Shown here one piece after another: positions 21,758-52,745 of a stretch of 64,000 nucleotides of DNA. Origin of the DNA: an uncultured Candidatus Saccharibacteria bacterium (GTDB taxonomy: Bacteria; Patescibacteriota; Minisyncoccia; Minisyncoccales; Staskawiczbacteraceae); assembly GCA_964404005.1 (NCBI GenBank), contig CAYOIH010000001.1, positions 226 through 64,225 of the forward strand. Reading direction: 5' to 3'. The translations under genes were made by a program, and so were the position numbers. The notes under the pieces were generated by a model. That model searched no databases. It saw only the letters and a program-made list of their open reading frames with translations, and was not told the origin of the DNA. The first letter of the stretch is position 1. Every line of letters starts with the position of its first letter.

Positions 21758-21871
21758 CCCCGTTAGAGATCATTAGGGGTAGGGTTTAGTTATTTTTAAA
21801 TATTGCGAATCAGTTTTGGATCGTAAAGACGTTTTTTAAATTTTTTTGTGGGCAATAAATCTCTAACGGGG
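21758..21871. repeat. family-2 inverted-repeat element (13-nt perfect TIRs, 88-nt spacer)
   Basis: ccccgttagagat (21758-21770) ... atctctaacgggg (21859-21871). Confidence 0.55.
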
Positions 21872-21906
21872 TTTACTTTTATTTTTTTTCTTGTTAGATT
21901 TTAGGA

Positions 21907-22632
21907 ATGCAAGATAAATTTCTAAACCCCGTTAGAAAGGCCGAGTTATCTGGACAAGATAATGTTTTTGGAAATAATGAGAAAGAAATACAACATGGAC
22001 AATCATTTTTAGAAATTTCTAAAAAAGAAATTTCTAAAAACAGGCTTTCTAACGGGGTAAAACTAACAAACACAGTTTATAAAGTGCTTGAGTTTTTTCC
22101 GGAATCAGATCCGTTAAAAAACAGGGCAAAAGATCGGGTGTTATCCATAATGGAGTATCTGACACTGATTGATAAAGGCAGTAATGATTCTGTAATTAAA
22201 ACTCATATTTCAGAAGATATAGATGTGCTTTTGGGCTATCTTTGGATAGGCAAATCGCAGGGTTGGTTAAACTCGTCTAACTGCCTTATAATCTCTAATG
22301 AATATGAAAAAATAACCCTTCAGCTTCGTTCAGGGCAGGAAAAAGAAATAGAACCGGCGATACCCGACAAAAGTCCCGCCGTTGCGGGACAATTTGACGG
22401 GCCCGCCATAATCTCGCCAATGGCGAGTTTGGGCGGGGAGCAGTTAGGCACTCGGCAGAAAAAAATTCTTGAATTTTTAGGTAAAAATGAAAAAGCGCAG
22501 GTTATGGATTTACGGGCGATATTGTCGGATGTCACAAAGAGAACCATAAGAAGGGATTTAGACGAATTACTTGAAGCCGGTAAAATAGTAAGATTGGGGG
22601 AGTTTAATCAAGTTTTTTACAAGACTAAGTGA
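21907..22632 (+). CDS. hypothetical protein with C-terminal winged-helix/DeoR-like HTH; N-terminal ~50 codons overlap a family-2 IR element so true start uncertain
   Basis: C-terminus QKKILEFLGKNEKAQVMDLRAILSDVTKRTIRRDLDELLEAGKIV is DeoR-N/HTH-like; carries family-1 copy (LQLRSGQ). Confidence 0.4.
   Translation: MQDKFLNPVRKAELSGQDNVFGNNEKEIQHGQSFLEISKKEISKNRLSNGVKLTNTVYKVLEFFPESDPLKNRAKDRVLSIMEYLTLIDKGSNDSVIKTHISEDIDVLLGYLWIGKSQGWLNSSNCLIISNEYEKITLQLRSGQEKEIEPAIPDKSPAVAGQFDGPAIISPMASLGGEQLGTRQKKILEFLGKNEKAQVMDLRAILSDVTKRTIRRDLDELLEAGKIVRLGEFNQVFYKTK
21927..22058. repeat. family-2 inverted-repeat element (13-nt perfect TIRs, 106-nt spacer)
   Basis: ccccgttagaaag (21927-21939) ... ctttctaacgggg (22046-22058). 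Confidence 0.55.
22317..22339 (+). repeat. family-1 repeat copy (in HTH ORF)
   Basis: ccttcagcttcgttcagggcagg. Confidence 0.75.
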
Positions 22633-22778
22633 TAGGACAAGGTGGGACAAAGATATATATAGATAGGACATTAAGTTAAATAGGTATGTCCTACCTGCCT
22701 CGCCAGTCAAGGCGGTGGTCTAAAATATGGGTAAAAAGCTTGTGTTTTTATAATATTTGTGCTAATATTTAACCTTAA

Positions 22779-23306
22779 ATGGCAGATAGCCTAAACGAAC
22801 AATTTAGCCAGATTTACGACCAATATATTGATAAAATATATAGGTTTGTTTATTTAAAGGTCAGCTCCCAAGAAATGGCCGAGGATATTGTGTCTAAGGT
22901 GTTTTTAAGGGGTTTTGAGGCCTATAAGGCTCAATATCAAACACCCAACACCCAACACCCAATTCAAAATCCGGGTGCCTTTCTATACCAAATAGCCAGA
23001 AACGCGGTTGTAGACCACTACAGAGACAAGGGGAGGTCAAAGGTTGTATCGGTTGACCTTGGCCCGGAAATAGTTGACCCGGGGACAAATGCCCAGGATA
23101 AGGCTATTTTAAGCGCTGATATTACTAATATTAGAAAGGCCATACAAAAGCTTAAAAAAGAGCACCAGGACATAATTATATGGCATTATTTAGAGGATAT
23201 GCCAATTACTGATATCGCCGAGCTATTGGGCAAGCCGGCTGGGACAGTGAGGGTGGCACTGCATAGGGGGCTAAAAGAGCTTAAAGATATAATCCAAGAG
23301 TCATAA
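22779..23306 (+). CDS. ECF-subfamily RNA polymerase sigma-70 factor
   Basis: region 2 (FLYQIARNAVVDHYRDKGR) and region 4 HTH (ITDIAELLGKPAGTVRVALHRGLKELK). Confidence 0.8.
   Translation: MADSLNEQFSQIYDQYIDKIYRFVYLKVSSQEMAEDIVSKVFLRGFEAYKAQYQTPNTQHPIQNPGAFLYQIARNAVVDHYRDKGRSKVVSVDLGPEIVDPGTNAQDKAILSADITNIRKAIQKLKKEHQDIIIWHYLEDMPITDIAELLGKPAGTVRVALHRGLKELKDIIQES
22941..22962 (+). repeat. 7-nt tandem repeat (cacccaa x3) inside ECF sigma coding sequence
   Basis: a|cacccaa|cacccaa|cacccaa; gain/loss of one unit would frameshift. Confidence 0.7.
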
Positions 23307-23342
23307 TCTACAGATTCCCGGAGTCTGTAATTGCTCAAGGCT

Positions 23343-23353
23343 TCTAACGGGGT
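23343..23353. repeat. solo half-site of family-2 element
   Basis: ttctaacgggg without partner within 300 nt. Confidence 0.35.
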
Positions 23354-23397
23354 GTAACAAAACAGCCATCTCAAGCGTCATACTTATAAAGCACACA

Positions 23398-24159
23398 ATG
23401 ACAAAAATAACACAAAAAAAACTTATAGAGTCGTTGTCGCAACTCAAAGAAATAAAACCCAGGAAAGAATGGGCTGTTTTGCTTAAGTCGCAAATCTTGG
23501 CTTCGCCCGCCGAAGCTTTAGCGCAGGAGGGCAGAAAAGCATTGGTTCAAAAAACCAGTATTTTAGATATTTTCTCTTCGGTGTTCTTCCCCTTCGGCGG
23601 GCTCAGGGCAGGCAGAAAATTGGCATATGCTTTTTCAGTCATTCTTTTGTTTGTTGTAGGGGTTTTTGGGTTTGCTGAATATACAGTTCCCGGGGACATG
23701 CTATTCCCGATGAAAAAAATTGCCGAGCAGTCGCAGGCAGCTTTGACAGGACAAACCAAATTAAATCAAGACGTCGCAACGCTAAATAGCAGAATAAACG
23801 ATTTGGCCCAAGTTGCAAAAGCAGGGAGAAAAGACAACATTCCTTCGGCAATAAGTGAGGTTTCAGCAAACGCATCACAGTTGGCAAAAAGCTTAAAAGA
23901 TAATCCTGTAAACGACCCGCAGACACTTAAAGAAATTGCGATTAGTTTAAAAACATTAGCCGACGTACAGGGAACTGACTTAACCGCTACGCCTGGCATA
24001 AGCGACCTTTATCAGACATTAGACCAAAACGAGATTAACGATTACCAAAAAACAACTTTAACAGAAGACCAGCAGAATATATTGGCTGAAGCAGAAGATT
24101 TATACAGTCAGGGGAAATATTATGAAGCGTTCGAAAAAATATTAACAATAGGTAATTAA
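23398..24159 (+). CDS. putative membrane-anchored anti-sigma factor (by position downstream of ECF sigma)
   Basis: single TM (YAFSVILLFVVGVFGFA) after a short cytoplasmic N-domain; carries family-1 copy (FPFGGLRAG). Confidence 0.35.
   Translation: MTKITQKKLIESLSQLKEIKPRKEWAVLLKSQILASPAEALAQEGRKALVQKTSILDIFSSVFFPFGGLRAGRKLAYAFSVILLFVVGVFGFAEYTVPGDMLFPMKKIAEQSQAALTGQTKLNQDVATLNSRINDLAQVAKAGRKDNIPSAISEVSANASQLAKSLKDNPVNDPQTLKEIAISLKTLADVQGTDLTATPGISDLYQTLDQNEINDYQKTTLTEDQQNILAEAEDLYSQGKYYEAFEKILTIGN
23591..23613 (+). repeat. family-1 repeat copy (in putative anti-sigma gene)
   Basis: ccttcggcgggctcagggcaggc. Confidence 0.8.
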
Positions 24160-24217
24160 AATTATAACTGACTCGGCAAGAAACTCGTACTTTTTTGCCG
24201 ATTATTAAAAAAATAAC

Positions 24218-24357
24218 ATTTGACGAGTCGTTTGTTCGTGATTAGTACGCTCGCCCCGTTAGAAATCTGCGGTAAAAACCGCGAATTTCTAACGGGGTAA
24301 ATCGCGAGCTATAGATAAATTAAATATTTGACGAGTCGTTTGTTCGTGATTAGTACG
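24218..24357 (+). repeat. 32-nt perfect direct repeat (24218-24249 / 24326-24357) flanking a family-2 IR element (24254-24296)
   Basis: atttgacgagtcgtttgttcgtgattagtacg x2; between them ccccgttagaaat-ctgcggtaaaaaccgcga-atttctaacgggg. Confidence 0.65.
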
Positions 24358-24474
24358 TAAAATCATGAACGATATAAGGTCGACCGACGAGAAATAAAAA
24401 ACTTAATCAATAATTTCTTATTTACTTAAATATTTATATTTAAATAAACAAGAAAAAAAATAAATAACACAAAA

Positions 24475-26424
24475 ATGAGTATTAAAAGAACAATTATAAC
24501 AACCATATTGGCATTGGCCTTGGTTGCAACAGTTGCTCCTGCAACAACTCAAGCTACAACAATTGACGATTTGTTAGTTCAAATCGCTTCACTTCAAGCT
24601 CAGTTGGTAGCCCTACAAGGAGGCAGCAGCACACCAGTTCCAACTGGAATAGTTGCTTGCTCAGGAGTTACATTCACAAGAGATTTAACAGTTGGCGCAA
24701 CAGGATCAGATGTAAAATGCTTACAGGTCCTTTTAAACACCAACGGCTATACACTTGCAACAGCAGGAGCAGGATCACCTGGGATGGAAACATCTTACTT
24801 TGGTCCAATAACCTTGTCGGCTGTTAGAGCATTCCAGGCAGCAAAAGGATGGACACCTGCAAATCAGGTTGGCCCATTAACAAGAGCAGCATTAAATACA
24901 CTTATCGGTACAACACCGACAACACCAGTTACCCCAACAGCAGGATGCCCGGCAGGAGCAGTTTATAACTCCGTAACCGGAGCATTATGCACAGTAGCAA
25001 CACCTGGAGCAACAGGATTTATTGATGCAGGTACATTGTCTCCTTCGCCAGCAGATAACGCAAATGTTATAACAACATCAAACGTTCCTGTGTTAGGATT
25101 AAATGTTAAAGCAATCGGCTCTAACATGACAGTTACCAGCGCAAAGGTTCAGTTAGCAATAAGTACTGGAGAGCATCCAGCCAACGTAGTGCAAAACCTT
25201 TATGTCTATGACGGAAGCACATTATTGGGTTCATACCCGGTTAATACAAGCACCGTTGTCAAGACCACAACCACTTACTATTTAATCTTGTCAGGATTCA
25301 ACTTTATGGTTCCTGTCAACACTACAAAAGTATTGACTGTTACAGCTGACTTCAATCCATCATTAGAAACAAGCAGAACCCTAACAGTTAACTTGGTTGA
25401 TACGTCTTCATTAAGAGCAGTTGACGGAGCCGGAGTATATACAACCGGTGGCGTAGCTACAGCCAGAACCTACGTAATAGCATACGCAACTGTTGGAACC
25501 TCAACACTGGCAGTTACCACTAACGTTTCTACTCTTGATTCAACTTCGGTTAATGTAAACCACACCAGCGGCAGAACAGATGTTCCAATGTTTATTTTCA
25601 GCGCAAAATCGTCAACAGGAGCTTCTACAATAACAGACTTAGTCCTTACAGCTCAGGGAGATGCCACAGGAATTGCATCAATGTCAGCTGTAAAATTGTA
25701 TGACGGTTCAACATTATTGGGTTCGGTTGCATTAAGCAGCGCAGTATCTGGAGCAACAGCTACATTTACTGACCTTTCAATCCCTGTAGCAAAAGATGCT
25801 ACAAAAACATTTACTGTAAAGGCAGACTTTTCAGCAGCTGTAACTCAAAGCACTTTGGGTGTAAACTTGTCTATATTAATTCCGGCTCACGACGTTACTT
25901 TCGACGAACCGAATTTGACATCAGCACATCCTACAGCATCTGCAGCAGTCTCCGGAAACGCTATGTATTTGTATGACGGTGTAGCAACAACATTTACACT
26001 TGTTAGCGCATCATCTTTATATGAATACAACTCCACAGTGCCGTCAACGTCTTGGACAACAGGTACAATTACCTTGAAGGTTCACTCAGACGGTGGAACT
26101 ACAGTAATGCCACTTTCTGCGCACTTCACAGTTAATGCCTACAGAAACGGTAGCTCAATGGGAGCAGCAGTCACACAGTCTATTACAGTAACACCAGAGT
26201 CTACTATTTCTGATGGCAGTGACGCAGTAGTAGTTATCAATCTTTCAGAGCCAGTAGGATCTGTGGCAGCCGGCGTGGTAGACTCTTTCTCTGGCACTGG
26301 TGCTATTGATTTCAGAGTAGACAGCATTTCATGGCAGTGTTCAGATGGTACACTTACATCCACAGAAGCAAGTCAGGATTGGGGAATATCTACCTTCAAG
26401 ACACCTACAGCAAACGCTCAGTAA
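24475..26424 (+). CDS. secreted Thr/Ser/Ala-rich surface protein with N-terminal peptidoglycan-binding domain (PG_binding_1) and three ~150-aa beta-rich repeats
   Basis: signal peptide; GATGSDVKCLQVLLNTNGY...FGPITLSAVRAFQAAKGW (PGBD); repeated YVYDGSTLLGS / KLYDGSTLLGS / YLYDGVATT modules. Confidence 0.55.
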   Translation: MSIKRTIITTILALALVATVAPATTQATTIDDLLVQIASLQAQLVALQGGSSTPVPTGIVACSGVTFTRDLTVGATGSDVKCLQVLLNTNGYTLATAGAGSPGMETSYFGPITLSAVRAFQAAKGWTPANQVGPLTRAALNTLIGTTPTTPVTPTAGCPAGAVYNSVTGALCTVATPGATGFIDAGTLSPSPADNANVITTSNVPVLGLNVKAIGSNMTVTSAKVQLAISTGEHPANVVQNLYVYDGSTLLGSYPVNTSTVVKTTTTYYLILSGFNFMVPVNTTKVLTVTADFNPSLETSRTLTVNLVDTSSLRAVDGAGVYTTGGVATARTYVIAYATVGTSTLAVTTNVSTLDSTSVNVNHTSGRTDVPMFIFSAKSSTGASTITDLVLTAQGDATGIASMSAVKLYDGSTLLGSVALSSAVSGATATFTDLSIPVAKDATKTFTVKADFSAAVTQSTLGVNLSILIPAHDVTFDEPNLTSAHPTASAAVSGNAMYLYDGVATTFTLVSASSLYEYNSTVPSTSWTTGTITLKVHSDGGTTVMPLSAHFTVNAYRNGSSMGAAVTQSITVTPESTISDGSDAVVVINLSEPVGSVAAGVVDSFSGTGAIDFRVDSISWQCSDGTLTSTEASQDWGISTFKTPTANAQ

Positions 26425-26467
26425 TTATTGCTAATATGCCTTCTTGTGAAAGGTGTATAGCATAACC

Positions 26468-26494
26468 AAAAAGCCACCTTCGGGTGGCTTTTTG
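26468..26494. terminator. bidirectional Rho-independent terminator between convergent genes
   Basis: aaaaagccaccttcgggtggctttttgg. Confidence 0.8.
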
Positions 26495-26570
26495 GTTCAC
26501 GGATTATACTGATAATAGCTGATTTATACTGATAAATTAAACTATCCGCATAAATCAGTCGAAATCTGCA

Positions 26571-26990
26571 TTAATCAGCGTTATTTAATGTCTTAATAGT
26601 ATGTATATATCTTTTAATTATTATTTTCTGTGGGCTGAAATTTATTAGAAATCCTAATTGGTATTTTGACCCTTTCAAGTACCCCCAGAATTGCTTTTCA
26701 TCTTCTTTGGTTGTAAATGACTTAGATTTTAATTCTACTATAATTTTGTTTTCCACAATTATATCCGGAATGTATACGCCAATTTTTTCGTTATTATAGT
26801 AGATATCAATTCTTTTTTCTTTTTCTATTGCCAAGTCGGAAGAAGTTAATTCATTGCATAACGCTCGCTGTATAATTTTTTCTTTAATTCCTCCGCCCAG
26901 AGCATTGTAAACTTTAAAACAAGCCCCTCTGATTTTATAGGATTCTTTTTCATATAATAAATTATCTGTATAAATCTGTTTAATCGGCAT
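26571..26990 (-). CDS. GxxExxY-family small protein (PD-(D/E)xK-like fold)
   Basis: SYKIRGACFKVYNALGGGIKEKIIQRAL ... YIPDIIVENKIIVELK pattern; flanked by 13-nt direct repeat c(c/g)gcataaatcag at 26546-26558 and 26985-26997. Confidence 0.45.
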   Translation of the reverse strand: MPIKQIYTDNLLYEKESYKIRGACFKVYNALGGGIKEKIIQRALCNELTSSDLAIEKEKRIDIYYNNEKIGVYIPDIIVENKIIVELKSKSFTTKEDEKQFWGYLKGSKYQLGFLINFSPQKIIIKRYIHTIKTLNNAD

Positions 26991-29307
26991 AAATCAGTGT
27001 AGATAGAAAGCTATCTATCTGGTCTTCCAGCTCAGGATTTGATTTAATAACTTCCGAAGCAATTTGTCTGGCCATGTTATAATTTCCTAATTCTTTGTAA
27101 ATAAGCATTATAGAAGTTTTGTATTGTATTTGTGAGCCGTTTATTACAAATAGTTTTTGATACAGGGGAAGCATTTCTTTATAGTTTTTGGTTTCCAAAT
27201 AAGCAGCCACCAGTTGCCTTAAAGAAATTTCATTTTCAACAGAATATCCGTCTTCTTTTGCTTTTTCTACAAATTCTTTTCCCGTTTTAACATCTCCCAA
27301 ATAAATATTAATTAATCCGGACATCCATAGGCAATCGCGGATTTTTGGGAATGTTTTTAAACAATAAACAGATTTTTCCTTTGCTCCCTTTAAATCTCCA
27401 AAAGAGACGTCAGCCATAAAAAAACTAAAAAGAATTGAGGGGTCTCTGGGGCTTAGTTCCATAGCCCTCTTAAAAGCTTCGTCGGACTTTTTTATAATTT
27501 CCGGGTCTTTGTTTTCTTTTGCGATTGTTGCCAGAGATTCTCCCAAGCGTAACCAATTTCTGTAGTCATATGGTTGTAATATTGTATTCTCTCCGGAAAT
27601 TTCTTTAACTTTTTGTGAAACAGAGCTATTTTCTTCGGGATGCGCAATAATCCTGTCTATTAGCAAATTTAAATAAACAGAATTGGCATAGGGGAGGAAA
27701 AAGGTGTTTATTTTGGACTGTTCATCCATAATTTTTATAGTATCTTTCCAGTTTTTCGATGATTCTGCCCGCGCAATAACAATTTGTTTATTCATTTGTA
27801 GAGGAATAAGATTATATTGCCATAAGAATATTATTAATATCAAAAATAAAATGACTATTATTATTGGTTTCCACCAGGTACTGTTTTTAGGTTCAGCGTT
27901 TTTCAGCGCCGTTATCAGCGTAGCATCAGCATTATTCAATGAAATTAAATGCAGTGAATAAGCAGATAAAAAGAAAAAAATAAGCATAATAGCAGCGCCG
28001 TCAATGGACGCCAAGCCAGCTATAAAAAAAGCTATGAATCCCGCTTGTAGTCCATGGGCAACCGGGTATTTTTTCTTGATTTTTTGGAGGCCCCATAATA
28101 ATGAAAGGAAAAAAACAAGGTAAAAAATTAAAGCAAAAATTCCGGAATCAACCAAAATTTGTATTAAATAATTATGCGCCCTGTCAAAATCTTTTATGTC
28201 TTCCATTGCAGGCAAATTGGGGTCATAGTGTTTGTTGAAAGCAACGTAAAAGTTTTCCGGCCCATATCCAAAATATGGCTTTTCAAAAAAAGCCGATATC
28301 GATATTTTCCAGGCAGATATTCTTGACGGGTCAACTGCAGCGCCTGTTGTCAGCGATGCTGTCCGGCCGACAGTGTCTTTTATTAAGTTGGGCATCCCTG
28401 CATAAATTTGAGGGTTGGCACTTAAAAAGAAAAGAAAAAAAATAAATACCATTGGTAAAACTACGGCACTTATTTTTAACCACTTAAATTTTTTAGGACT
28501 CGCCCCGTTAGAGATTACATTATCTCTAGCGGGGTAAAAAATTAAAAAACAAAAAAGTCCAACCAACATGCCTAAAATAGCAGCTCTTGTTTGGGTTATA
28601 AAAATAATTACAAAAGAATAAAAAATAACAAGGAACAAATAAGAGTATTTTTTTACTTTATTTGCTTCTGATATAAAAAATGATAAAGAAAGAAAAAGAA
28701 GCGGTAAAAGGTAAAGAGCAAGAATTATTGGATTTCCCAATGTTGAGCTTGGCCTGTAAGTTGTTACGGCCAGAAATGATGCAAAAAATCCAAATTGCTG
28801 AAGGACAGCTATTAACCCTACCAAAAATCCGATAATCAATGAAAAATCAAGCAGTTTTTTCCAGCTTGCCTCGCCCGTTGGCGGGTCTTCTTTTTTTATA
28901 ATTGAAAAACAGAAGATGCAGAAAAGGATAAAAAACGAAAAATTAATAAATCCGGCGCCTCTTTCTGGGGTTCCCCATAAACTACGGGAAACATCCAGGG
29001 AAAATAATGTTGAAATAAAAACCGCGAAGAAATATGCCAAAAGCGAAATTAACGGAAGAAAGGTTTTCGTGTGCGGATTAAAAACTTCTTTAAAATTTAC
29101 CTGCCCTGAGCCGTGCCGAAGGGTTTTTTCTTTAACCAAATAAATAAAACCCAAAACCGCCAATAGCGACCTAAAAACAATGGCCTGTGTGTATGCCGAG
29201 GGAGTAAACCATGGCGGAACATTTAAAGCCGGCAAGGCTAATATTATAAAGAACCCAGCTATATATAACCAGTAAAAATTGTTACTTTTTTCGTTGATTT
29301 TAGCCAT
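26980..29307 (-). CDS. Wzy_C/O-antigen-ligase-family membrane protein with C-terminal TPR repeats (possible protein O-oligosaccharyltransferase)
   Basis: ~12 TM helices, ITQTRAAILGMLVGL Wzy_C motif, C-terminal TPR-like helical repeats; contains in-frame family-1 (TLRHGSGQ) and family-2 (PARDNVISNG) repeats. Confidence 0.6.
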   Translation of the reverse strand: MAKINEKSNNFYWLYIAGFFIILALPALNVPPWFTPSAYTQAIVFRSLLAVLGFIYLVKEKTLRHGSGQVNFKEVFNPHTKTFLPLISLLAYFFAVFISTLFSLDVSRSLWGTPERGAGFINFSFFILFCIFCFSIIKKEDPPTGEASWKKLLDFSLIIGFLVGLIAVLQQFGFFASFLAVTTYRPSSTLGNPIILALYLLPLLFLSLSFFISEANKVKKYSYLFLVIFYSFVIIFITQTRAAILGMLVGLFCFLIFYPARDNVISNGASPKKFKWLKISAVVLPMVFIFFLFFLSANPQIYAGMPNLIKDTVGRTASLTTGAAVDPSRISAWKISISAFFEKPYFGYGPENFYVAFNKHYDPNLPAMEDIKDFDRAHNYLIQILVDSGIFALIFYLVFFLSLLWGLQKIKKKYPVAHGLQAGFIAFFIAGLASIDGAAIMLIFFFLSAYSLHLISLNNADATLITALKNAEPKNSTWWKPIIIVILFLILIIFLWQYNLIPLQMNKQIVIARAESSKNWKDTIKIMDEQSKINTFFLPYANSVYLNLLIDRIIAHPEENSSVSQKVKEISGENTILQPYDYRNWLRLGESLATIAKENKDPEIIKKSDEAFKRAMELSPRDPSILFSFFMADVSFGDLKGAKEKSVYCLKTFPKIRDCLWMSGLINIYLGDVKTGKEFVEKAKEDGYSVENEISLRQLVAAYLETKNYKEMLPLYQKLFVINGSQIQYKTSIMLIYKELGNYNMARQIASEVIKSNPELEDQIDSFLSTLIYAD
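28503..28534. repeat. family-2 inverted-repeat element, 6-nt spacer, in-frame inside Wzy_C gene
   Basis: ccccgttagagat tacatt atctctagcgggg (1 mismatch). Confidence 0.55.
29101..29122 (-). repeat. family-1 repeat copy (in Wzy_C gene, sense to that minus-strand gene)
   Basis: revcomp = ccttcggcacggctcagggcag. Confidence 0.8.
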
Positions 29308-29357
29308 GGTTTGTGATACAAATATAAAATAAAGATTATTCTCTGATAATACAAATT

Positions 29358-29804: not shown

Positions 29805-29848
29805 GCGTTATTAAATGACACTTTTTGACCCCTATTGACACCGAGTTA

Positions 29849-30118
29849 ATGGGGGTTTATTATTCATTAATGGAAGAAGAAATACAACCTCGTAAAATAT
29901 ATACCCCGAAAGAGGCCAGGGACTTTCTGAAGGTTTCGGAAAGCACCATGAAAAGAATGCTAAAAAGTGGAATTATCAAGGCTTATAAAGTAAGTGGCCA
30001 GTATAGAATTTGGGGAAGCGAGATATTAATTCTTGTGTCGCCCAAATTGGAATCTAAGGTATATAAAGTTTATAAAAAAATAAGAGAAAATACTCAAAAA
30101 ACCATTGAAAAATGGTAA
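29849..30118 (+). CDS. excisionase-family HTH DNA-binding protein
   Basis: PKEARDFLKVSESTMKRMLKSGIIKAYKVSGQYRI matches MerR-like excisionase-family HTH (xis/AlpA type). Confidence 0.5.
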   Translation: MGVYYSLMEEEIQPRKIYTPKEARDFLKVSESTMKRMLKSGIIKAYKVSGQYRIWGSEILILVSPKLESKVYKVYKKIRENTQKTIEKW

Positions 30119-30127
30119 CTAAAAAAT

Positions 30128-45225: not shown

Positions 45226-45248
45226 ATAAACAAAATAATTTTTTAAAG

Positions 45249-46905: not shown

Positions 46906-46907
46906 CT

Positions 46908-47822: not shown

Positions 47823-47823
47823 C

Positions 47824-48735
47824 ATGGATTTAGAAAATAAAAAGATTTTAGTAACCGGCGGGTTGGGTTTTATCGGAAGCCACACAGTTTTAGCTTTATT
47901 AGAAAGAGGAGCTTGTATTGTTGTAGTAGATAATTTACCGTCAGCAGATATAAAAAGTATTGATGCCAGAATAAAATTTTATGATTTGGATATAGCAAGC
48001 GCATCTCTAGGGAAAGTTTTTAAAAGAGAAATCCCGGAAATTGTTTATCATTTTGCTTTTGATATTTCATTACATAAATCTTTAGGTGAGGACATCGGAC
48101 GGGAAAGTGTAAAAGCCATTTCTAATTTGTTAGAGAATTGTAATAAATACGGAGTTAAAAAATTTATATTAGCTTCTTCGGGCGCAGTTTATGGTAATCC
48201 GGAAAATTTTCCAATTAATGAAGGGGATCCGATGAAGCCAGTCGCCCCTTACGGCGTCATAAAAATTCTTGTAGAGGATTGCGTAAAGAAGTTGCACGGA
48301 TTAAATTATGTAATTTTAAGATATGCGACAGTTTACGGTCCTGGTCAGCGGGGAGGAGCGATGTCTGATTATATCCGCAAATTATCTTCTGGCGAGCAAG
48401 CAGATGTATGGGGGGATGGAAGCAAGACAAGAGATTATGTATATATAAATGACGTTGTTAGGGCCAATCTTCTGGCCCTTCAGGTGCCGGACGATTTCGA
48501 AGATCCAGTTTTTAATGTTAGTACGGGAGTGGAGACAACATTAAATGACCTCTATTATAAAGTAGCAGAACTCTTGAGTAAAAAAGCTGATCCCAGATAT
48601 TTGCCAGACAGGCCGGGAGAGCTAATGAGATATCAGTTAGATTATTCAAAAATAAAAAGAGTTTTAGGGTGGGAGCCAGAATATAGTTTGGAGAAGGGAT
48701 TAAAAAAAAGATTACACGAAGAAAATTTAATTTAA
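47824..48735 (+). CDS. NAD-dependent epimerase/dehydratase (UDP-hexose 4-epimerase-like SDR)
   Basis: KILVTGGLGFIGSHTV, YGVIKILVE (YxxxK). Confidence 0.75.
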   Translation: MDLENKKILVTGGLGFIGSHTVLALLERGACIVVVDNLPSADIKSIDARIKFYDLDIASASLGKVFKREIPEIVYHFAFDISLHKSLGEDIGRESVKAISNLLENCNKYGVKKFILASSGAVYGNPENFPINEGDPMKPVAPYGVIKILVEDCVKKLHGLNYVILRYATVYGPGQRGGAMSDYIRKLSSGEQADVWGDGSKTRDYVYINDVVRANLLALQVPDDFEDPVFNVSTGVETTLNDLYYKVAELLSKKADPRYLPDRPGELMRYQLDYSKIKRVLGWEPEYSLEKGLKKRLHEENLI

Positions 48736-48736
48736 T

Positions 48737-49600
48737 ATGCTTACTTTATTTTCAACGCCACGACCATTCAAGGGTTCTTTTAACAGGATTCAAAGGAATT
48801 CTATAGAAAGCTGGAAAGCAGTATGCCCCGACTGTCAAATTATTTTGTTTGAAGACGAAGACGGGACGACTTCTAAGATTGCGGAAGAATTACGGGTTGA
48901 GTGTGTAAAGAACCGTGAGTCTAGTAAATTTGGCACACCGCTGTTGAGTAGTTTATTCGATATCGCAAAAGAAAAATCCAAACATGAAATTATAGTTCAA
49001 ATAAGCACAGATATTATCTTAACTAATGATTTTTTGCCGTCAGTAAAAAAGGTAGTAGAAGCCATGGGCGATAAGCCGTTTTTAATGGCGGGGAGAAGGC
49101 GGGATTTAAATTTTGAAGAAAAAATTGACTTTACCCAAAAGGATTGGCAAATTAAAATAATAAATTTGGCCGAGAAGAAGGGAAGACTTCACGCTCCGTC
49201 TGCAATGGATTATTGGGTTTTGCCTCGCAATATGCCTTTGGAATTTCCCAAATTTATTATTGGGCGCCCCGGTACCGATAGCTGGCTGGTATATGAATTA
49301 AGAAAAAGGAAGATTTCTGTTATCAATTCAACCGAAGCCATTAGCGCCATTCACCAGAATCACAATTATCCGCAAAAAGGTAAGCCGTTTTTTGCAGTTG
49401 AAAAAGCCTATAATCTAAAGTTGGCAGGCGGATTTATGAATTTATTAACGTTGCGAGAAGCAGATTGGATTTTAACGAAAAATGGCTTAGAAAAGCCAAA
49501 ATTTCCCCAGCGTATTTTTTCCGAATTAGCTCTTTATTACCCATGGAGGCTTTTAATACTAATCAAACGAAAGATTGATATCTTATTAAACAGATGGTGA
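48737..49600 (+). CDS. hypothetical protein (possible nucleotide-diphospho-sugar transferase)
   Basis: no motif I recognise with confidence; conserved position inside glycan locus. Confidence 0.25.
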   Translation: MLTLFSTPRPFKGSFNRIQRNSIESWKAVCPDCQIILFEDEDGTTSKIAEELRVECVKNRESSKFGTPLLSSLFDIAKEKSKHEIIVQISTDIILTNDFLPSVKKVVEAMGDKPFLMAGRRRDLNFEEKIDFTQKDWQIKIINLAEKKGRLHAPSAMDYWVLPRNMPLEFPKFIIGRPGTDSWLVYELRKRKISVINSTEAISAIHQNHNYPQKGKPFFAVEKAYNLKLAGGFMNLLTLREADWILTKNGLEKPKFPQRIFSELALYYPWRLLILIKRKIDILLNRW

Positions 49601-50850
49601 ACAAAAAGATTGTTTATTTATTTTTAGTATTGCTTGTCGCGGCGATATCTTTGTCGCCCAGGCTTTCTTTGGGGCTTATACCAAACACCGGAAGAAGCGT
49701 TGACATAAGAGCAGAAGATATGGTCCTTTGCTTCAGTTTAATCTTGGGGATATTTCATATTTTGGCATCGGGCAGATGTAGATTTAAACGGCCACCACTG
49801 TTTTGGCCTATTTTGGCGTGGATTCTATTTGGTCTTTTCAGCGTGTTGGTAAATTTATTATTTAGGGATGTTAATTTAAAAATAACAATCTTTTATTTTT
49901 TAAAGGAGGTAGAATTTTTCCTTGTTTATTTCTTCGTCTTTTACTGCGCCAGGAGTATTGATCCTGGAAAGCGACTGATAAAATATTGGATATTTTTTTC
50001 TTTGGTAAATATTTTTTGGCTGGTTTATGTTTTTATTTTTAATATCCAGTGGTCTATACAGCCATATGGTCCGAATGCATTTATTGAACCAGGCGGTCCG
50101 TTTCCAAGCGGCGGATTTTTTTTGTTGCTTTTTATATTCTTTTTAAATCTTTTTATTTTTTATTACAGTAAATTAAATACTTCTAAAATCAAAAAAATGC
50201 TCCTTTTTGTTGTTTGCATTTTACCGGCGATAGGCGTGATGTGGTCCGGATCAATGGCGGCTACCATAGGGTTGTTTGTTTCCATAATTGTTTCTTTGTT
50301 TATATTATTTAAGGATCGGCTGGATTTTGCAGGGACAATTAAAATAATAATTTTAATAGCGGTAATTTTGGGAATTGTTATAGCTGCGATACGTGTATTG
50401 CCCGTGCCACAAAAAATAATTTCGTTTAAAAAAATAATTTTTGAATATGATTCAAATTCGCCGGTATCCAGGGGAGGAATTTTTGAGAGGAACTTAACTA
50501 CACTGGCAGAGCATCCGACATATTTAGTTTTTGGAGCGGGCGTTTTAGGCGAAGCCCATAGTCAGTATATGAGAGTGCTTTTAGAAAGAGGCATCATCGG
50601 ACTATTTTTATTTTTTTGGCTGATGTGGTCCATATTGAAAATCTCATATAATAGTTTTAAAGAAAAAGATGATTTATTCAAAAAAGGTCTAAGCGCCGGG
50701 CTATTTGTTGCTACTGTTTCCATGCTAATAATGGCTATTCCAAACGACGTTTTTATGGTGGTGAAGCCCGATGAAGTCTATTGGTTTTTTGCTGCAATGA
50801 CAATGGCGCTAATATCTATGCCTTCAGAAATAAAACAAACAGCCAATTAA
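49594..50850 (+). CDS. multi-TM membrane protein, putative O-antigen/glycan polymerase (Wzy-like)
   Basis: ~10-12 TM helices with one large loop; location between GTs. Confidence 0.4.
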   Translation: MVNKKIVYLFLVLLVAAISLSPRLSLGLIPNTGRSVDIRAEDMVLCFSLILGIFHILASGRCRFKRPPLFWPILAWILFGLFSVLVNLLFRDVNLKITIFYFLKEVEFFLVYFFVFYCARSIDPGKRLIKYWIFFSLVNIFWLVYVFIFNIQWSIQPYGPNAFIEPGGPFPSGGFFLLLFIFFLNLFIFYYSKLNTSKIKKMLLFVVCILPAIGVMWSGSMAATIGLFVSIIVSLFILFKDRLDFAGTIKIIILIAVILGIVIAAIRVLPVPQKIISFKKIIFEYDSNSPVSRGGIFERNLTTLAEHPTYLVFGAGVLGEAHSQYMRVLLERGIIGLFLFFWLMWSILKISYNSFKEKDDLFKKGLSAGLFVATVSMLIMAIPNDVFMVVKPDEVYWFFAAMTMALISMPSEIKQTAN

Positions 50851-50862
50851 TCCATTAATTCT

Positions 50863-51888
50863 ATGGCAGATCAATCATCAATATCTATAATTATTCCGTG
50901 CAGAAATGAGGAAAAATTTATTTCCAAATGCTTGGATTCGATTTTAAACAACGATTATCTCCGCCTTCATCAAGATTTCGGCGGACAGGCAAAAGATAAA
51001 ATGGAAATTTTTGTCGTCGACGGCATGAGCCGGGACAAGACCGCGGAAATAGTAAAAAAATATATAGAAAAATATCCATTTATAAAATTGCTGGATAATC
51101 CAAAATTTATTGCATCGGCGGCTTTAAATATAGGGATTAAGGCATCTAAGGGAGGTATTATTATAAGGATGGATGCGCATGCAATATATGATAAATGTTA
51201 TATTTCAAAATGCGTGAATTATTTAAAAATGAATGGCGCTGACAATGTTGGGGGAGTAATATCTATAATTCCCAGGACAAATACTCCGATTGGCAGGGGA
51301 ATAGCCAGGGCAACCTCTTCATTTTTAGGAACCGGGGGAGCCCGATATAAAACCGGTACTGAAAAATTTGAGGAAGTTGATACGGTTCCATTTGGATGTT
51401 TCAGAAGGGACGTGTTTGATAGAATTGGTTTTTTCAACGAAAATTTAAAGAGGAGTCAGGATATGGAATTTAATATAAGATTGAAAAAATCCGGAGGAAA
51501 AATTTATTTATTTACAGACATAGTTAGTCATTATTATGTAAGGTCAGAATTGAAAGATTTTTTTGTGCATAACTTTAAAGATGGAATTTGGGCGATTTAT
51601 CCTTTTAAATTTACTAAAAGACTTTTTAAACTAAGGCACTACATACCGCTAGTTTTTGTTTCCGGATTAATTATTACTTTTTTTCTGGGCATGCTTATAA
51701 AACCATTTTATTATATTTTCTTAGCTGAAATTTTGTTTTATATTTTGGTTATATTATATGCGGCGGTTGAAGTTTCTTTGAAAGAAAAAGATGCAACATG
51801 TCTATTTTCCCTGCCCATCGCATTAGCTACTCGGCATTTTGCCTACGGTTTTGGTTCAGTTTTTGGTATAATAAAATTGCTAATATGA
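50863..51888 (+). CDS. family 2 glycosyltransferase with C-terminal TM helices (polyprenol-phosphate glycosyltransferase-like)
   Basis: ISIIIPCRNEE...VVDGMSRDKTAEIV..RMDAHA; C-terminal 2 TM helices as in GtrB/ArnC-type enzymes. Confidence 0.7.
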   Translation: MADQSSISIIIPCRNEEKFISKCLDSILNNDYLRLHQDFGGQAKDKMEIFVVDGMSRDKTAEIVKKYIEKYPFIKLLDNPKFIASAALNIGIKASKGGIIIRMDAHAIYDKCYISKCVNYLKMNGADNVGGVISIIPRTNTPIGRGIARATSSFLGTGGARYKTGTEKFEEVDTVPFGCFRRDVFDRIGFFNENLKRSQDMEFNIRLKKSGGKIYLFTDIVSHYYVRSELKDFFVHNFKDGIWAIYPFKFTKRLFKLRHYIPLVFVSGLIITFFLGMLIKPFYYIFLAEILFYILVILYAAVEVSLKEKDATCLFSLPIALATRHFAYGFGSVFGIIKLLI

Positions 51889-52664
51889 TAGAAGAAAGAA
51901 AAAAAACAGAAATTAATCATTATGACAGAAAAGCATCGGAATGGTTAAAAAAAGAACAAAGAGGAGATTTTGAGGGATTCAACCCTTTTTTATTATCCGG
52001 TTATAAATTTTTGCAAGAATATTTAAGAGATAAATGTAAGGGCAAAAAAATATTAGATTACGGCTGTGGCAATGGAGTACATTATCCCTGGTTAGTAAAA
52101 TTTGGCGGAGAAGTTGTGGGCGTAGATTTGTCTGAAAAATCTTTAGAGGTAGCCAAAAAAATAGCAGAAAAAGGGGGGATAAGCGATAAGGCCAAATTTT
52201 TAATTGCAGATTGTGAAAGATTGGAATTTTCCGATAGTTCATTCGATATAATATTTGATGGCGGTACCTTCTCTTCTTTAGACCTAAATAAGGCATACCC
52301 AGAATTAGCTAGAGTTTTAAAGCCGGGAGGGTTTTTGATCGGTATAGAAACTTTTGGACATAATCCGTTCACAAATTTAAAAAGGCAGATTAATAAAATT
52401 GTAGGCAGAAGAACCGGCTGGGCAGCGTCTCATATATTCAGAAATGATGATATAAAAAAAGCAGATACTTTTTTCGGAAAGAAGCAAATATTTTATTTTC
52501 ACCTTATTTCTTGGGCCGCATTCCCTTTATTAAAAATCACAGGAGGTGTTTATCTTTTGAAAATATTGGAGGTTTTTGACAGGATTTTATTAAAAATTTC
52601 ATTCTTTAAAAAATATTCTTTTAAAGTAGTGTTTATATTTTCTGATCCCAAAAAACAATTATGA
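51885..52664 (+). CDS. class I SAM-dependent methyltransferase
   Basis: ILDYGCGNGVHYPWLVKFGGEVVGVDLSEKSLEVAKK, LKPGGFL; ATG at 51885 overlaps the previous stop (ATGA). Confidence 0.6.
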   Translation: MIEERKKTEINHYDRKASEWLKKEQRGDFEGFNPFLLSGYKFLQEYLRDKCKGKKILDYGCGNGVHYPWLVKFGGEVVGVDLSEKSLEVAKKIAEKGGISDKAKFLIADCERLEFSDSSFDIIFDGGTFSSLDLNKAYPELARVLKPGGFLIGIETFGHNPFTNLKRQINKIVGRRTGWAASHIFRNDDIKKADTFFGKKQIFYFHLISWAAFPLLKITGGVYLLKILEVFDRILLKISFFKKYSFKVVFIFSDPKKQL

Positions 52665-52668
52665 TAAA

Positions 52669-52745
52669 CCCCGTTAGAAATTTTACTAAATGGGGATAAT
52701 AAAATAAAGATAATTAGTATGAAAAAACCTGCTATTTCTAACGGG
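52669..52745. repeat. family-2 inverted-repeat element spanning the RBS and start codon of the PglC-like gene
   Basis: ccccgttagaaat (52669-52681) ... atttctaacgggg (52733-52745); the second arm encodes ISNG of the protein N-terminus. Confidence 0.55.

What the first reader, a model, noticed from the sequence alone, without database searches (positions are those of the whole stretch)
21758..52745. Family-2 elements: 13-nt perfect terminal inverted repeats CCCCGTTAGAAAT/ATTTCTAACGGGG with variable spacers, also in-frame in proteins
Five complete pairs have spacers of 88, 106, 17, 6 and 51 nt. They lie at 21758-21871, 21927-22058, 24254-24296, 28503-28534 and 52669-52745, plus a solo arm at 23343-23353. 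The right arms are typically followed by TAAA. Two pairs sit in or upstream of the HTH ORF at 21907. One lies between the anti-sigma and surface-protein genes and has an internal hairpin. One is in-frame inside the Wzy_C gene (PARDNVISNG). One brackets the RBS and start codon of the PglC-like gene, where the right arm encodes ISNG. The arm is translated as (I/L)SNG in three genes. The variable internal length with constant termini looks like a MITE-like family, or alternatively a regulator operator pair with looping.
Basis: seen in the sequence. Interest (0 to 1): 0.65.

Follow-up and report, generated by a model that had tools for sequence, protein, structure and literature searches.

The report
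Tiny palindromic mobile insertions in genes
The repeated inverted 13-mers are the two ends of very small hairpin-shaped DNA insertions, each flanked by a 4-base target duplication, that have landed in and beside cell-surface genes of this uncultured bacterium; insertions with the same ends turn up in many other uncultured bacteria and a few archaea, and I could find no published description of them.

Summary
The window holds five inverted pairs and one solo arm of CCCCGTTAGA(A/G)A(T/G), against about 2 expected by chance.

They are insertions, not operators:
- Three pairs are flanked by exact 4-nt direct duplications (TTTA or TAAA).
- Syntenic relatives carry clean empty sites with a single copy of that tetranucleotide.
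- The HTH, Wzy and PglC-like proteins have homologues that lack exactly the inserted residues.

These span Patescibacteria, Omnitrophota, Planctomycetota, Nitrospirota, Desulfobacterota and archaea.
- 72 of 130 short copies have an exact 4-nt flank duplication of Y-N-N-R type (shifted control 1 of 130).
- The modal size is 29 nt, so element plus duplication adds 11 codons.
- Copies sit in frame in IF-2, UvrA, SMC, PheT, ClpB-type and RelA genes.
- Nested copies occur.

Best reading: a family I could not find described, of ultra-short MITE-like elements comparable to Rickettsia palindromic elements. I infer mobilisation in trans by a transposase that cuts with a 4-nt stagger.

No autonomous copy was found. 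The arms are unexpectedly invariant at orthologous sites, and one gene position is occupied patchily across lineages. Both remain unexplained.

The parts
21754..21875 (.). Element 1 (114 nt, 21758-21871) with TTTA duplicated on both sides. It lies between the promoter-like -10 (TATGATACAAT) and the start codon of the HTH_DeoR-type gene, so probably in its 5' UTR.
   Evidence: Coordinates. The orthologous empty site in L128 has a single TTTA (..AAGTAC TTTA CTTTTGTTG..). The same site is filled in L165, L179, L191 and L185. Predicted 14-bp closing stem, -33 kcal/mol, z -3.7.
21923..22061 (+). Element 2 (131 nt, 21927-22057) with TAAA duplicated. Together they form a 135-nt (45-codon) in-frame insertion after codon 6 of the HTH_DeoR-type gene (21907-22632): ..KFL[NPVRK...LSNGV]KLTN..
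   Evidence: Alignment A1: most homologues read M.DKFL|KLTNTVYK, and a subset carries NPVR..SNGV inserts of 11 to about 65 residues at the same point. DNA of 9 filled and 12 empty orthologues was compared. Fold -46 kcal/mol, z -8.0.
23339..23352 (-). Solo right-type arm GGCTTCTAACGGGG, abutting the conserved ECF-type promoter TGTAAC-N17-CGTCATA of the anti-sigma (DUF5667) gene. The left arm is missing or decayed. It closes a stretch of about 45 nt that is absent from L128.
   Evidence: The same half-element at the same place is present in L185.
24250..24301 (.). Element 3 (44 nt, 24254-24297), a 20-bp stem hairpin with flanks CTCG and TAAA (no duplication). It is inserted at GTACG|TAAA of a conserved leader upstream of the PG_binding surface-protein gene.
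   Evidence: The uninterrupted leader is seen in L128 and L130. Fold -37 kcal/mol, z -7.5.
24215..24357 (+). Tandem duplication of the leader (35-nt copies at 24215-24249 and 24323-24357, 34/35 identical). Copy 1 is interrupted by element 3 and copy 2 is intact.
28495..28538 (-). Element 4 (32 nt, 28503-28534; one arm mismatch). It forms a 36-nt in-frame insertion (residues 260-271, ARDNVISNGASP) in the Wzy_C/TPR gene (26980-29307, minus strand). Flanks are CTCG and TAAA.
   Evidence: L128 reads FFFFYP|KKFKTLKI and L130 reads YPIR--IKQIK at this point. The divergent allele in L002 (69% amino-acid identity) keeps the arms but has a different 6-nt loop.
52665..52750 (+). Element 5 (78 nt, 52669-52746) with TAAA duplicated. 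It is inserted two codons after the original start codon (ATG at 52661, overlapping the upstream TGA stop) of the PglC-like Bac_transf gene. The present start codon (52719) lies inside the element.
   Evidence: Removing the element and one TAAA restores ATGATAAAAAGATTGTTTGAT = MIKRLFD. Most of the 120 closest homologues start M[ILVT]KRLFD, and a minority start M..K..ISNGVKRLFD.

Best explanation
The pairs are copies of a family of very short, non-coding, palindromic insertion elements (MITE-like).

Anatomy. Each copy is a hairpin-forming sequence whose outer 10-11 bp are (R)CCCCGTTAGA...TCTAACGGGG(Y). The inner stem and loop vary between copies. The typical size is 24-53 nt, with a mode of 29 nt. 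Longer copies, such as those in this window, have unrelated and sometimes nested interiors.

Shown here:
- Insertion duplicates 4 nt of target of the type Y-N-N-R, mostly TTTA/TAAA, often in an R|YNNR|Y context.
- Related genomes hold the uninterrupted target.
- Copies occur in many phyla.
- Copies that survive inside genes have element plus duplication equal to a multiple of three, lie in one of the two stop-free frames (xPVR..SNGV or TPLE..LTG), and add a short peptide.

Inferred:
- The elements are, or were, moved in trans by a transposase acting as a symmetric dimer that makes 4-nt staggered cuts (DDE-type cut-and-paste).
- Excision is possibly seamless, as in piggyBac. This would explain the clean empty sites scattered among close relatives.

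In this window the insertions have done four things:
1. Added a structured segment to the 5' UTR and 45 residues to the N-terminus of an HTH regulator.
2. Split one of two leader copies upstream of a surface-protein gene.
3. Added 12 residues to a Wzy-type polymerase or ligase.
4. Displaced the start codon of the PglC-like initiating transferase, which now starts inside the element.
For: Target-site duplications and empty sites in the window:
- Exact 4-nt direct duplications flank pairs 1, 2 and 5.
- DNA-level empty sites with one copy of the tetranucleotide are present in syntenic relatives.
- Protein-level empty sites exist for HTH, Wzy and PglC. The PglC N-terminus MIKRLFD was predicted from the sequence before the homologues were inspected.

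Family-wide evidence:
- At least 120 loci in one-genome-per-species contigs. My arithmetic gives about 17-35 expected by chance.
- Composition-matched control patterns in viral contigs gave 4 and 3 loci, against 21 for the real pattern.
- 72 of 130 distinct short copies have an exact 4-nt duplication, against 1 of 130 in a shifted control. Extending the comparison to 5 nt leaves 1 of 130, so the duplication is 4 nt long.
- Duplications are seen in Patescibacteria 17/32, Omnitrophota 20/29, Planctomycetota 13/21, Desulfobacterota 7/10, Nitrospirota 4/10 and archaea 1/5 (plus 3 with 3 of 4 positions matching).
- Flank composition is Y at +1, R at +4, R at -5 and Y at +5, a dyad-symmetric target.
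- Nested copies (L-L-R-R) occur.
- Subfamilies with shared loops occur across phyla.

Genic copies:
- 27 of 28 copies inside long ORFs keep the frame.
- Copies are depleted in coding sequence relative to random positions, and out-of-frame copies are essentially intergenic.
- Host genes include IF-2, UvrA, UvrD, SMC, PheT, a Clp-type AAA ATPase (ClpB D2 domain), ArsA and RelA/SpoT in this same genome.

The hairpins are strongly predicted to form (z -3.7 to -8.0).
Against: - No ORF-bearing copy and no recurrent transposase gene was found in about 1.3 Mb of flanking DNA. The trans-acting enzyme is therefore purely inferred.
- Pairs 3 and 4 lack a duplication (CTCG / TAAA), as do 40 of the 130 short copies in other genomes, which fall short of even a 3-of-4 flank match (a further 18 match at 3 of 4 positions).
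- No insertion polymorphism is seen among near-identical strains (L001-L007, L154-156), so there is no sign of current mobility in this species.
- The arms are invariant across orthologues that are only 47-55% identical in protein: 0 of 8 arm codons vary against 14 of 20 neighbouring conserved codons, p = 0.002. A dead, neutral transposon relic would not do that.
- Part of the cross-phylum signal rests on MAG binning.
- Some exact-pattern hits are unrelated terminator-like hairpins: 11 of 21 viral hits, and the Bacteroidales and Rhizobium hits.
Confidence: 0.75

Rival explanations
1. The arms are operators for a local transcription factor (the HTH_DeoR-type protein at 21907 or the HTH_17 protein at 29825). 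Paired sites would be bridged by looping, forming a regulon of surface and glycan genes.
For: - Four arms crowd the HTH gene's own 5' region and the others lie near surface-related genes.
- The arms are conserved at orthologous positions while interiors diverge.
- The solo arm directly abuts a conserved ECF-type promoter in two lineages.
Against: - The same ends occur in Omnitrophota, Planctomycetota, Nitrospirota, Desulfobacterota and archaea, inside unrelated housekeeping genes.
- They are flanked by target duplications and have empty sites.
- The syntenic relative L128 has the whole HTH-sigma-antisigma-surface-Wzy block with no arm at all.
- Centre-to-centre distances of 19, 31, 65, 101 and 118 bp share no helical phase (my arithmetic).
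Confidence: 0.06
2. They are REP-type elements: short extragenic or intragenic palindromes mobilised as single-stranded hairpins by a RAYT/IS200-IS605-type HUH tyrosine transposase.
For: - The size (20-50 nt) and hairpin shape fit.
- REPs are known inside uvrA, uvrB and other repair genes, and some REP super-families (CGTC) have no known transposase (PMC3733652).
- The inner stem covaries within each copy.
Against: - REPs are asymmetric, with an unpaired GTAG or CGTC tag at one end and a tail at the other. These elements are symmetric and have no such tag.
- From established knowledge, HUH single-strand transposition of IS200/IS605 makes no target duplication. Here an exact 4-nt duplication is the rule.
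- No RAYT-like gene was seen next to any copy.
Confidence: 0.07
3. The hairpin is a functional module selected in the host, for example an RNA stability or translation-control stem or a binding site for a widely conserved protein. On this reading its spread owes more to selection and recombination than to transposition.
For: - DNA-level invariance of the arms at old orthologous sites, including a non-coding 5' UTR site.
- Repeated occupancy of the same nucleotide position in the HTH gene and the PglC gene in scattered lineages.
- Position around start codons and leaders in this window.
Against: - Most copies elsewhere are in arbitrary places, including the middle of housekeeping proteins.
- Close relatives do well without them.
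- Target duplications and nested copies point to insertion events.
- There is no Rfam family match.
Confidence: 0.1
4. The inverted repeats are recombination sites for a site-specific invertase (phase-variable invertons or a shufflon acting on surface genes).
For: - Inverted orientation, location in a strain-variable surface and glycan region, and in-frame reading of the repeats as in shufflons.
Against: - Spacers of 6 and 18 nt are far too short to invert.
- No inverted variant of any spacer or inter-element segment is seen in more than 10 independent assemblies.
- No recombinase gene is present in the neighbourhood.
- Breakpoints between strain variants (window 24545 and 26453) do not coincide with the elements.
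Confidence: 0.02

Closest known systems
Rickettsia palindromic elements (RPE; Ogata et al. 2000, 2002, as summarised in PMC10969869)
   Same: They are palindromic, non-coding repeats that insert in frame into unrelated housekeeping genes and are translated as extra peptide segments. No transposase is known for them.
   Different: - RPEs are about 100-150 bp and confined to Rickettsia and relatives.
- The elements here are mostly 24-53 nt, with a defined 10-bp terminus and a 4-nt target duplication.
- They are spread over many phyla and a few archaea.
- Sequence relatedness to RPE consensus sequences was not tested.
REP / REPIN elements with RAYT transposases (GTAG and CGTC super-families, PMC3733652)
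   Same: They are 20-40 bp hairpins, sometimes intragenic (uvrA, uvrB), with covarying stems and a wide phyletic spread.
   Different: REPs carry an unpaired GTAG or CGTC tag and a tail, are asymmetric, and are not reported in that survey with target duplications (the word does not occur in its text). The elements here are symmetric, untagged, and flanked by 4-nt duplications.
Classical bacterial MITEs such as the Neisseria Correia element (knowledge of the family; review PMC10969869)
   Same: They have terminal inverted repeats, a short target duplication, no ORF, many copies, and effects on neighbouring gene expression and on coding sequences.
   Different: Classical MITEs are 50-500 bp, have a conserved interior derived from a known IS, and are genus-restricted. 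Here only the termini are shared, the interior is minimal or unrelated, and no parent IS is known.
piggyBac superfamily and its prokaryotic outgroup IS1380 (e.g. ISEcp1)
   Same: - The ends start with CC(C) followed by TAGA: piggyBac TTAA|CCCTAGAAAGATAG, ISEcp1 CCTAGATTCTACG, this family CCCCGTTAGAAAG/T.
- piggyBac makes a 4-nt duplication at a T-N-N-A type target and excises seamlessly. That would fit the clean empty sites seen here.
   Different: - TTAA itself accounts for only 1 of the 72 duplications here.
- ISEcp1 makes 5-bp duplications (from memory).
- No PF13701-type or piggyBac-type transposase was found near any copy.
- The resemblance of the ends is short and could be chance.

Membership tests
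MITE (generic definition) | Terminal inverted repeats | tested here: met
   There are 10-15 bp perfectly complementary termini in 4 of 5 window copies and 12/13 in the fifth. The same 10-mer termini occur in 130 copies elsewhere.
MITE (generic definition) | Target-site duplication | tested here: met
   An exact 4-nt direct duplication flanks 3 of 5 window copies and 72 of 130 others, against 1 of 130 in a shifted control. Empty sites hold a single copy.
MITE (generic definition) | Small, no coding capacity of its own, multiple copies per genome | tested here: met
   Sizes are 24-210 nt. There are 5 copies plus 1 half copy in 64 kb, and one more in the next 10 kb of the same genome. Several copies per 8 kb occur in many other genomes.
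MITE (generic definition) | Presence/absence polymorphism at orthologous sites | tested here: met
   L128 lacks all copies in 20 kb of synteny and L130 has one. At the HTH site there are 9 filled orthologues against about 35 empty ones.
MITE (generic definition) | A full-length IS with the same termini encoding the transposase | tested here: inconclusive
   No arm pair encloses a transposase ORF, and no recurrent transposase is present in about 1.3 Mb of fetched flanks. Whole genomes could not be searched.
REP / RAYT | Unpaired GTAG or CGTC tag at one end of the hairpin (PMC3733652) | tested here: not met
   The elements are symmetric. Their flanks are variable Y-N-N-R duplications with no GTAG or CGTC.
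REP / RAYT | Associated Y1 (RAYT) transposase gene flanked by the repeats | tested here: inconclusive
   None was seen in the sampled flanks. Genomes were not searched in full.
piggyBac / IS1380-derived element | TTAA-specific 4-bp duplication (piggyBac) | tested here: not met
   The duplication is 4 nt, but TTAA is 1 of 72. TTTA/TAAA dominate, and CGAG, TTCA, TCAA and others occur.
piggyBac / IS1380-derived element | Termini beginning CC(C) | tested here: met
   This family has CCCCGTTAGA. piggyBac has CCCTAGAAAG and ISEcp1 has CCTAGATTC.
piggyBac / IS1380-derived element | Cognate DDE transposase (PF13701 or piggyBac type) with matching ends | tested here: inconclusive
   A tblastn of the ISEcp1 transposase against all fetched loci found nothing. 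The database search returned only ISEcp1-like proteins.
Rickettsia palindromic elements | Sequence similarity to an RPE consensus | not tested
Only the behaviour (in-frame genic insertion) is shared.
Invertible-promoter / shufflon sites | Both orientations of the bounded segment in a population, with a nearby recombinase | tested here: not met
   All assemblies show one orientation. No recombinase is present in the region. Spacers of 6 and 18 nt cannot invert.
Rfam RNA families | Match to a curated covariance model | tested here: not met
   There were 0 hits at gathering thresholds in the whole window. Only chance-level miRNA and sRNA hits appeared at E <= 5 in 21700-24400.

The most novel reading that the evidence does not exclude
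The hairpins are the substrate of an unrecognised, horizontally spreading prokaryotic cut-and-paste system with seamless excision (piggyBac-like in behaviour). This system repeatedly occupies and vacates the same hot spots, typically the first codons or leaders of genes. Its 10-bp ends are kept intact either by rapid turnover or by host-level selection, because the insertion acts as a reversible expression or protein-variant switch. It would operate across bacterial phyla and into archaea.
Probability: 0.15. Interest if true: 0.85.

Novelty: new variant of a known kind. Interest (0 to 1): 0.62.

Why it matters
If confirmed, this would be among the smallest transposable-element families I know of. 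The modal copy is 29 nt, essentially two 10-13-bp ends and a loop. I know of few families whose ends are shared across so many bacterial phyla and a few archaea.

It shows that the phenomenon of selfish DNA inside protein-coding genes, known from Rickettsia, is widespread in uncultured groundwater and sediment lineages. Copies there sit inside essential genes such as IF-2, PheRS beta, UvrA, SMC and RelA.

Practical consequences:
- The elements create spurious N-terminal extensions, shifted start codons and short inserts that confuse gene calling and protein-family alignments in candidate-phyla genomes.
- Their target duplications and empty sites give a clean marker for tracing lineage history.
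- The invariant ends at ancient sites, and the repeated use of single nucleotide positions, pose a concrete and testable question: what enzyme recognises CCCCGTTAGA, and is excision seamless?

Tried and rejected
- ECF-sigma promoter idea: the sequences downstream of all 11 arms share no -10 element at fixed spacing (my inspection). The true conserved ECF-type promoter (TGTAAC-N17-CGTCATA) merely abuts the solo arm.
- DNA-uptake-sequence idea: the motif is clustered rather than evenly spread, and it carries target duplications.
- Programmed bypass or RNA-level excision: out-of-frame copies do not sit inside otherwise intact ORFs (9 of 52, against 72% for random positions).
- Recombination breakpoints: the strain-variant boundaries at window positions 24545 and 26453 are not at elements.
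- Link to the neighbouring PD-(D/E)XK (PF13366) cassette: no homologue lies near any other copy.
- Link to the rve_3 (IS481-like) gene just outside the window: its own inverted repeat, ACTGTAAAGTAT, is unrelated.
- Search for an autonomous copy, by four routes, all without a candidate:
  - arm pairs up to 6 kb apart with matching duplications;
  - all-against-all clustering of 2071 flanking ORFs;
  - a Pfam scan of 83 ORFs from the 17 most element-dense loci;
  - a tblastn with the ISEcp1 transposase.
- The third protein search, seeded with ISEcp1, returned only close ISEcp1 relatives and was of no use.
- Literature searches by sequence, by encoded peptide and by concept found no description. 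The one sequence hit, a P. gingivalis oligonucleotide, is a designed bulge substrate.
- There is no match in PLSDB plasmids, INPHARED phages or E. coli genomes.
- Viral contigs: 21 hits, but only about 6 look like family members. The rest are three phage lineages with terminator-like hairpins.

Full report

The 13-mer occurs 11 times at <=2 mismatches, against 2.24 +/- 1.37 in dinucleotide-preserving shuffles; none of 100 shuffles reached 11. The exact 9-mer CCCCGTTAG occurs five times on each strand and nowhere else in the window.

Exact coordinates and spacers:
- 21758-21871, spacer 88
- 21927-22057, spacer 105
- 24254-24297, spacer 18
- 28503-28534, spacer 6, with one arm mismatch
- 52669-52746, spacer 52
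- half-site GGCTTCTAACGGGG at 23339-23352

The literal CCCCGTTAGAAAT is present only in pairs 3 and 5; the invariant part is (A/G)CCCCGTTAGA. The reported in-frame readings are correct. A relaxed arm search and an unbiased search for GC-containing hairpins flanked by 4-nt direct repeats find no other member in the window.

**2. Context**

The window is essentially JGI contig Ga0268278_1000096, 66 kb. HTH homologues are named Candidatus Staskawiczbacteria, within Patescibacteria.

The genes around the sites are, in order:
- a radical-SAM gene
- a 241-aa protein with a C-terminal HTH_DeoR domain (21907)
- an ECF-type sigma factor
- a DUF5667 anti-sigma-like protein
- a PG_binding surface protein
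- a PD-(D/E)XK cassette
- a Wzy_C/TPR protein on the minus strand
- a long glycan-synthesis cluster that includes the PglC-like Bac_transf gene at 52719

Strain variants of the same species are identical upstream and diverge downstream of 24545 or 26453. They keep all the arms they can be compared for.

**3. The pairs are insertions**

*HTH gene.* Aligning the HTH protein with 22 homologues shows a conserved N-terminus M.DKFL|KLTNTVYKVLEFFPE. The window protein and a subset of homologues carry an insert exactly at the bar. It begins NPVRK (= AAC CCC GTT AGA AAG, the left arm) and ends (I/L/F)SNGV (= TCT AAC GGG GTA, the right arm). Its internal length ranges from 0 to about 55 residues.

*Target duplications.* At the DNA level the element (131 nt) is flanked by TAAA on both sides. 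Pair 1 is flanked by TTTA/TTTA and pair 5 by TAAA/TAAA.

*Syntenic relatives.* L128 (HTH 67% identical) has the whole gene block and not a single arm in 20 kb. L130-132 have only the HTH-gene copy. The empty sites are textbook:
- L128 reads ..AAGTAC TTTA CTTTTGTTG.. where the window has GCGC TTTA[114 nt]TTTA CTTTTATT.
- L128 reads AAATTTC TAGA ATTAACG where the window has the 135-nt insert.
- The L128 Wzy protein reads FFFFYP|KKFKTLKI where the window has YP[ARDNVISNGASP]KKFKW.

*PglC-like gene.* I predicted from the sequence that deleting the element and one TAAA restores ATGATAAAAAGATTGTTTGAT = MIKRLFD, with the ATG overlapping the upstream gene's TGA. The homologue search then showed that most of the 120 closest homologues (197 aa) start M[ILVT]KRLFD. 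A minority (204-215 aa) start M..K..ISNGVKRLFD. In the window gene the original start now runs into a stop after 12 codons, and the annotated start lies inside the element.

**4. The family is large and widespread**

My arithmetic gives roughly 17-35 expected by chance. As an empirical control, composition-matched palindromic and direct-repeat patterns in viral contigs gave 4 and 3 loci, against 21 for the real pattern.

*Flank duplications.* Of 130 distinct short copies, 72 have an exact 4-nt direct flank repeat, against 1 of 130 in a shifted control. Requiring a fifth matching base leaves 1 of 130, so the duplication is 4 nt long. The repeat has the form Y-N-N-R:
- TTTA 19 and TAAA 16
- then CGAG, TTCA, TTTG, TCAA, TGAA and others

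The base outside is R on the left and Y on the right, giving a dyad-symmetric target that is often GTNNAC-like.

*Phyletic spread of duplications*:

| Group | Copies with exact duplication |
|---|---|
| Patescibacteria | 17/32 |
| Omnitrophota | 20/29 |
| Planctomycetota | 13/21 |
| Desulfobacterota | 7/10 |
| Nitrospirota | 4/10 |
| Archaea | 1/5, plus 3 near-exact |

Duplications also occur in single MAG contigs of several other groups.

*Other family features.*
- Nested copies occur.
- Subfamilies with shared loops recur across phyla, for example AGATAGYAARCATCT of 29 nt in Ignavibacteria, Nitrospinota, an Aenigmatarchaeota MAG and viral contigs.
- The modal length is 29 nt.
- (Length + 4) is a multiple of three in 60% of copies.

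*Copies inside genes.* Of 28 copies inside long ORFs, 27 keep the frame, using either xPVR..SNG(V/A) or (T/A)PLE..LTG; the third frame has stops in both arms. Relative to random positions the elements are depleted in coding sequence, and out-of-frame copies are essentially intergenic. This pattern is what purifying selection on random insertion would produce, and it gives no hint of bypass or splicing.

Interrupted genes include IF-2, UvrA, UvrD, SMC, PheT, a Clp-type AAA ATPase (ClpB D2 domain), ArsA, another Wzy and planctomycete prepilins. In the source genome, just outside the window, RelA/SpoT is also interrupted (..FDWV[NPVRSRGGLEIIQKKQTSNGV]KDIPEFW).

*Caveats.* Taxon labels are MAG bin labels. 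Some exact-pattern hits are unrelated terminator-like hairpins with inverted rather than direct flanks: 11 of the 21 viral hits, from three phage lineages, and the Bacteroidales and Rhizobium hits.

**5. What the long copies are**

The window copies of 78-131 nt and other copies of 55-210 nt share nothing but the ends. Their interiors are unique or contain nested copies. Within each copy the stem extends beyond the 10-mer with bases that differ between copies but pair within the copy. The canonical unit therefore looks like a short hairpin whose loop region can grow.

Pair 2's interior contains two AGAAATTTCT palindromes, which are the inner halves of the arms fused together.

**6. Mechanism**

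Shown by the data: insertion with a 4-nt duplication of a symmetric target, precise empty sites, multiplicity, nesting, and selection for frame.

Inferred: a dimeric transposase making 4-nt staggered cuts and acting in trans.

The ends resemble those of piggyBac (TTAA|CCCTAGAAAGATAG) and of its prokaryotic outgroup IS1380 (ISEcp1 CCTAGATTCTACG). piggyBac's 4-nt T..A duplication and seamless excision would also fit. Against that, TTAA is only 1 of the 72 duplications, and no matching transposase was found. This remains a lead, not a classification.

No ORF-bearing copy or recurrent transposase appeared in about 1.3 Mb of flanks.

The REP/RAYT alternative fails its defining feature, the unpaired GTAG or CGTC tag, and from established knowledge HUH single-strand transposition makes no target duplication.

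**7. Two things this account does not explain**

I fetched 80 more loci of the HTH gene.

*Patchy occupancy of one position.* Nine orthologues carry an element at the identical nucleotide (TTTCTAAA|CCCC...GGGG|TAAAAYTAAC). Their lengths are 29, 29, 32, 65, 68, 77, 92, 131 and 137 nt. About 35 orthologues have the clean site TTTCTAAAAYTAAC. On a neighbour-joining tree of the conserved part of the protein, the filled alleles are scattered, each beside an empty one. Either one hot spot was hit many times or the element was lost seamlessly many times. The 5' UTR site and the solo arm are likewise shared with scattered distant relatives, and the PglC site is occupied in a minority of homologues.

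*Invariant arms.* In five orthologues that are only 47-55% identical in protein, the arms show no substitution: 0 of 8 arm codons vary against 14 of 20 neighbouring conserved codons, p = 0.002. The interiors, by contrast, are barely alignable. Neutral relics would not behave this way. Possible explanations are rapid turnover at hot spots or selection on the hairpin (predicted stems -19 to -46 kcal/mol, z -3.7 to -8). I could not discriminate between them.

**8. Effects in this window (inference from position)**

- Element 1 adds a 14-bp-stem structure to the HTH gene's leader.
- Element 2 adds 45 residues after codon 6.
- Arms 2 and 3 are also mutually complementary and bracket the start codon.
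- Element 3 splits one copy of a conserved leader upstream of the surface-protein gene. A second, intact tandem copy follows.
- Element 4 adds 12 residues within the Wzy_C domain. It is retained, with a different loop, in a 69%-identical allele.
- Element 5 forces the PglC-like gene to start inside the element.

There is no polymorphism for any copy among near-identical strains, so these insertions are old and fixed in this species.

**9. Prior knowledge and verdict**

I found no description of this family:
- Rfam has no match.
- Searches of the paper library by sequence, encoded peptide and concept found nothing.
- PLSDB plasmids, cultured phages and E. coli genomes have no copy.

The closest described things are Rickettsia palindromic elements and intragenic REPs. 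I therefore class it as a new variant of a known kind: an ultra-short, cross-phylum, MITE-like palindromic insertion element. The mobilising enzyme and the cause of arm conservation remain open.

Noticed in passing
window 26454-27013 (gene 26571-26990, minus strand): A PD-(D/E)XK_3 (PF13366, GxxExxY-type) gene is present in this strain but absent from the 97%-identical strain L002, where 88 bp replace about 560 bp. It is bordered by GCATAAATCAGT-like direct repeats and overlaps the Wzy stop by 11 nt, so it looks like a small mobile cassette.
   Followed up: partly
window 23353-23385; L128 11230-11265; L130; L185 4366-4400: A conserved ECF-type promoter-like motif, TGTAAC-N16/17-CGTC(A/G)TA, lies directly upstream of the DUF5667 anti-sigma gene in four lineages. 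This suggests that the sigma factor drives the anti-sigma gene from an internal promoter.
   Followed up: partly
window 24323-24400; L128 12045-12130; L130 12200-12300: A conserved roughly 80-nt leader (ATATTGGATGAGTCG..TTCGTGATTAGTACGTAAA..AAGGTCGACCGATGAGAAATAAAA) lies upstream of the large PG_binding surface-protein gene in several Staskawiczbacteria. It could be a promoter or a structured RNA. It has no Rfam match.
   Followed up: no
L002 16130-16160 (Wzy allele): A second, different small palindrome (CCTGCC-TGCCGGTA-GGCAGG) forms a 21-nt in-frame insert (PLPTGRQ) right next to the element in the divergent Wzy allele. L130 has other hairpin inserts in the sigma/anti-sigma spacer, and a CCCAGTTATTTAATTGGG+TAAA mini-palindrome in the leader. 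These genomes may host several families of such elements.
   Followed up: no
window 24545-52000 versus L002 and L003: The surface-protein gene (649, 663 or 1142 aa), the Wzy gene and the downstream glycan cluster are swapped between strains that are 97-100% identical upstream. This is a strain-variable surface and glycan island.
   Followed up: partly
L248 7347-8648 (about 1.3-2.7 kb upstream of the window start): A 433-aa HTH + rve_3 (IS481-like) transposase gene has its own 12-nt inverted repeat, ACTGTAAAGTAT. It is unrelated to the hairpin family.
   Followed up: partly
L165 3750-4423: Two small GIY-YIG ORFs are inserted between the HTH gene and the sigma gene in one relative. These may be a homing-endonuclease-type insertion.
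   Followed up: no
viral loci L133, L135, L138, L140, L148; L142, L143, L153; L137, L144, L149: Three phage lineages carry terminator-like hairpins that contain the same 10-mer arms but have inverted (not direct) flanks and T-runs. They are probably unrelated chance matches and inflate exact-pattern counts.
   Followed up: partly
window 374-407 (= L248 9237-9270): A perfect 14-bp inverted repeat, GGGCTGTGCGCACA/TGTGCGCACAGCCC with a 6-nt spacer, lies upstream of the signal-peptidase gene.
   Followed up: no
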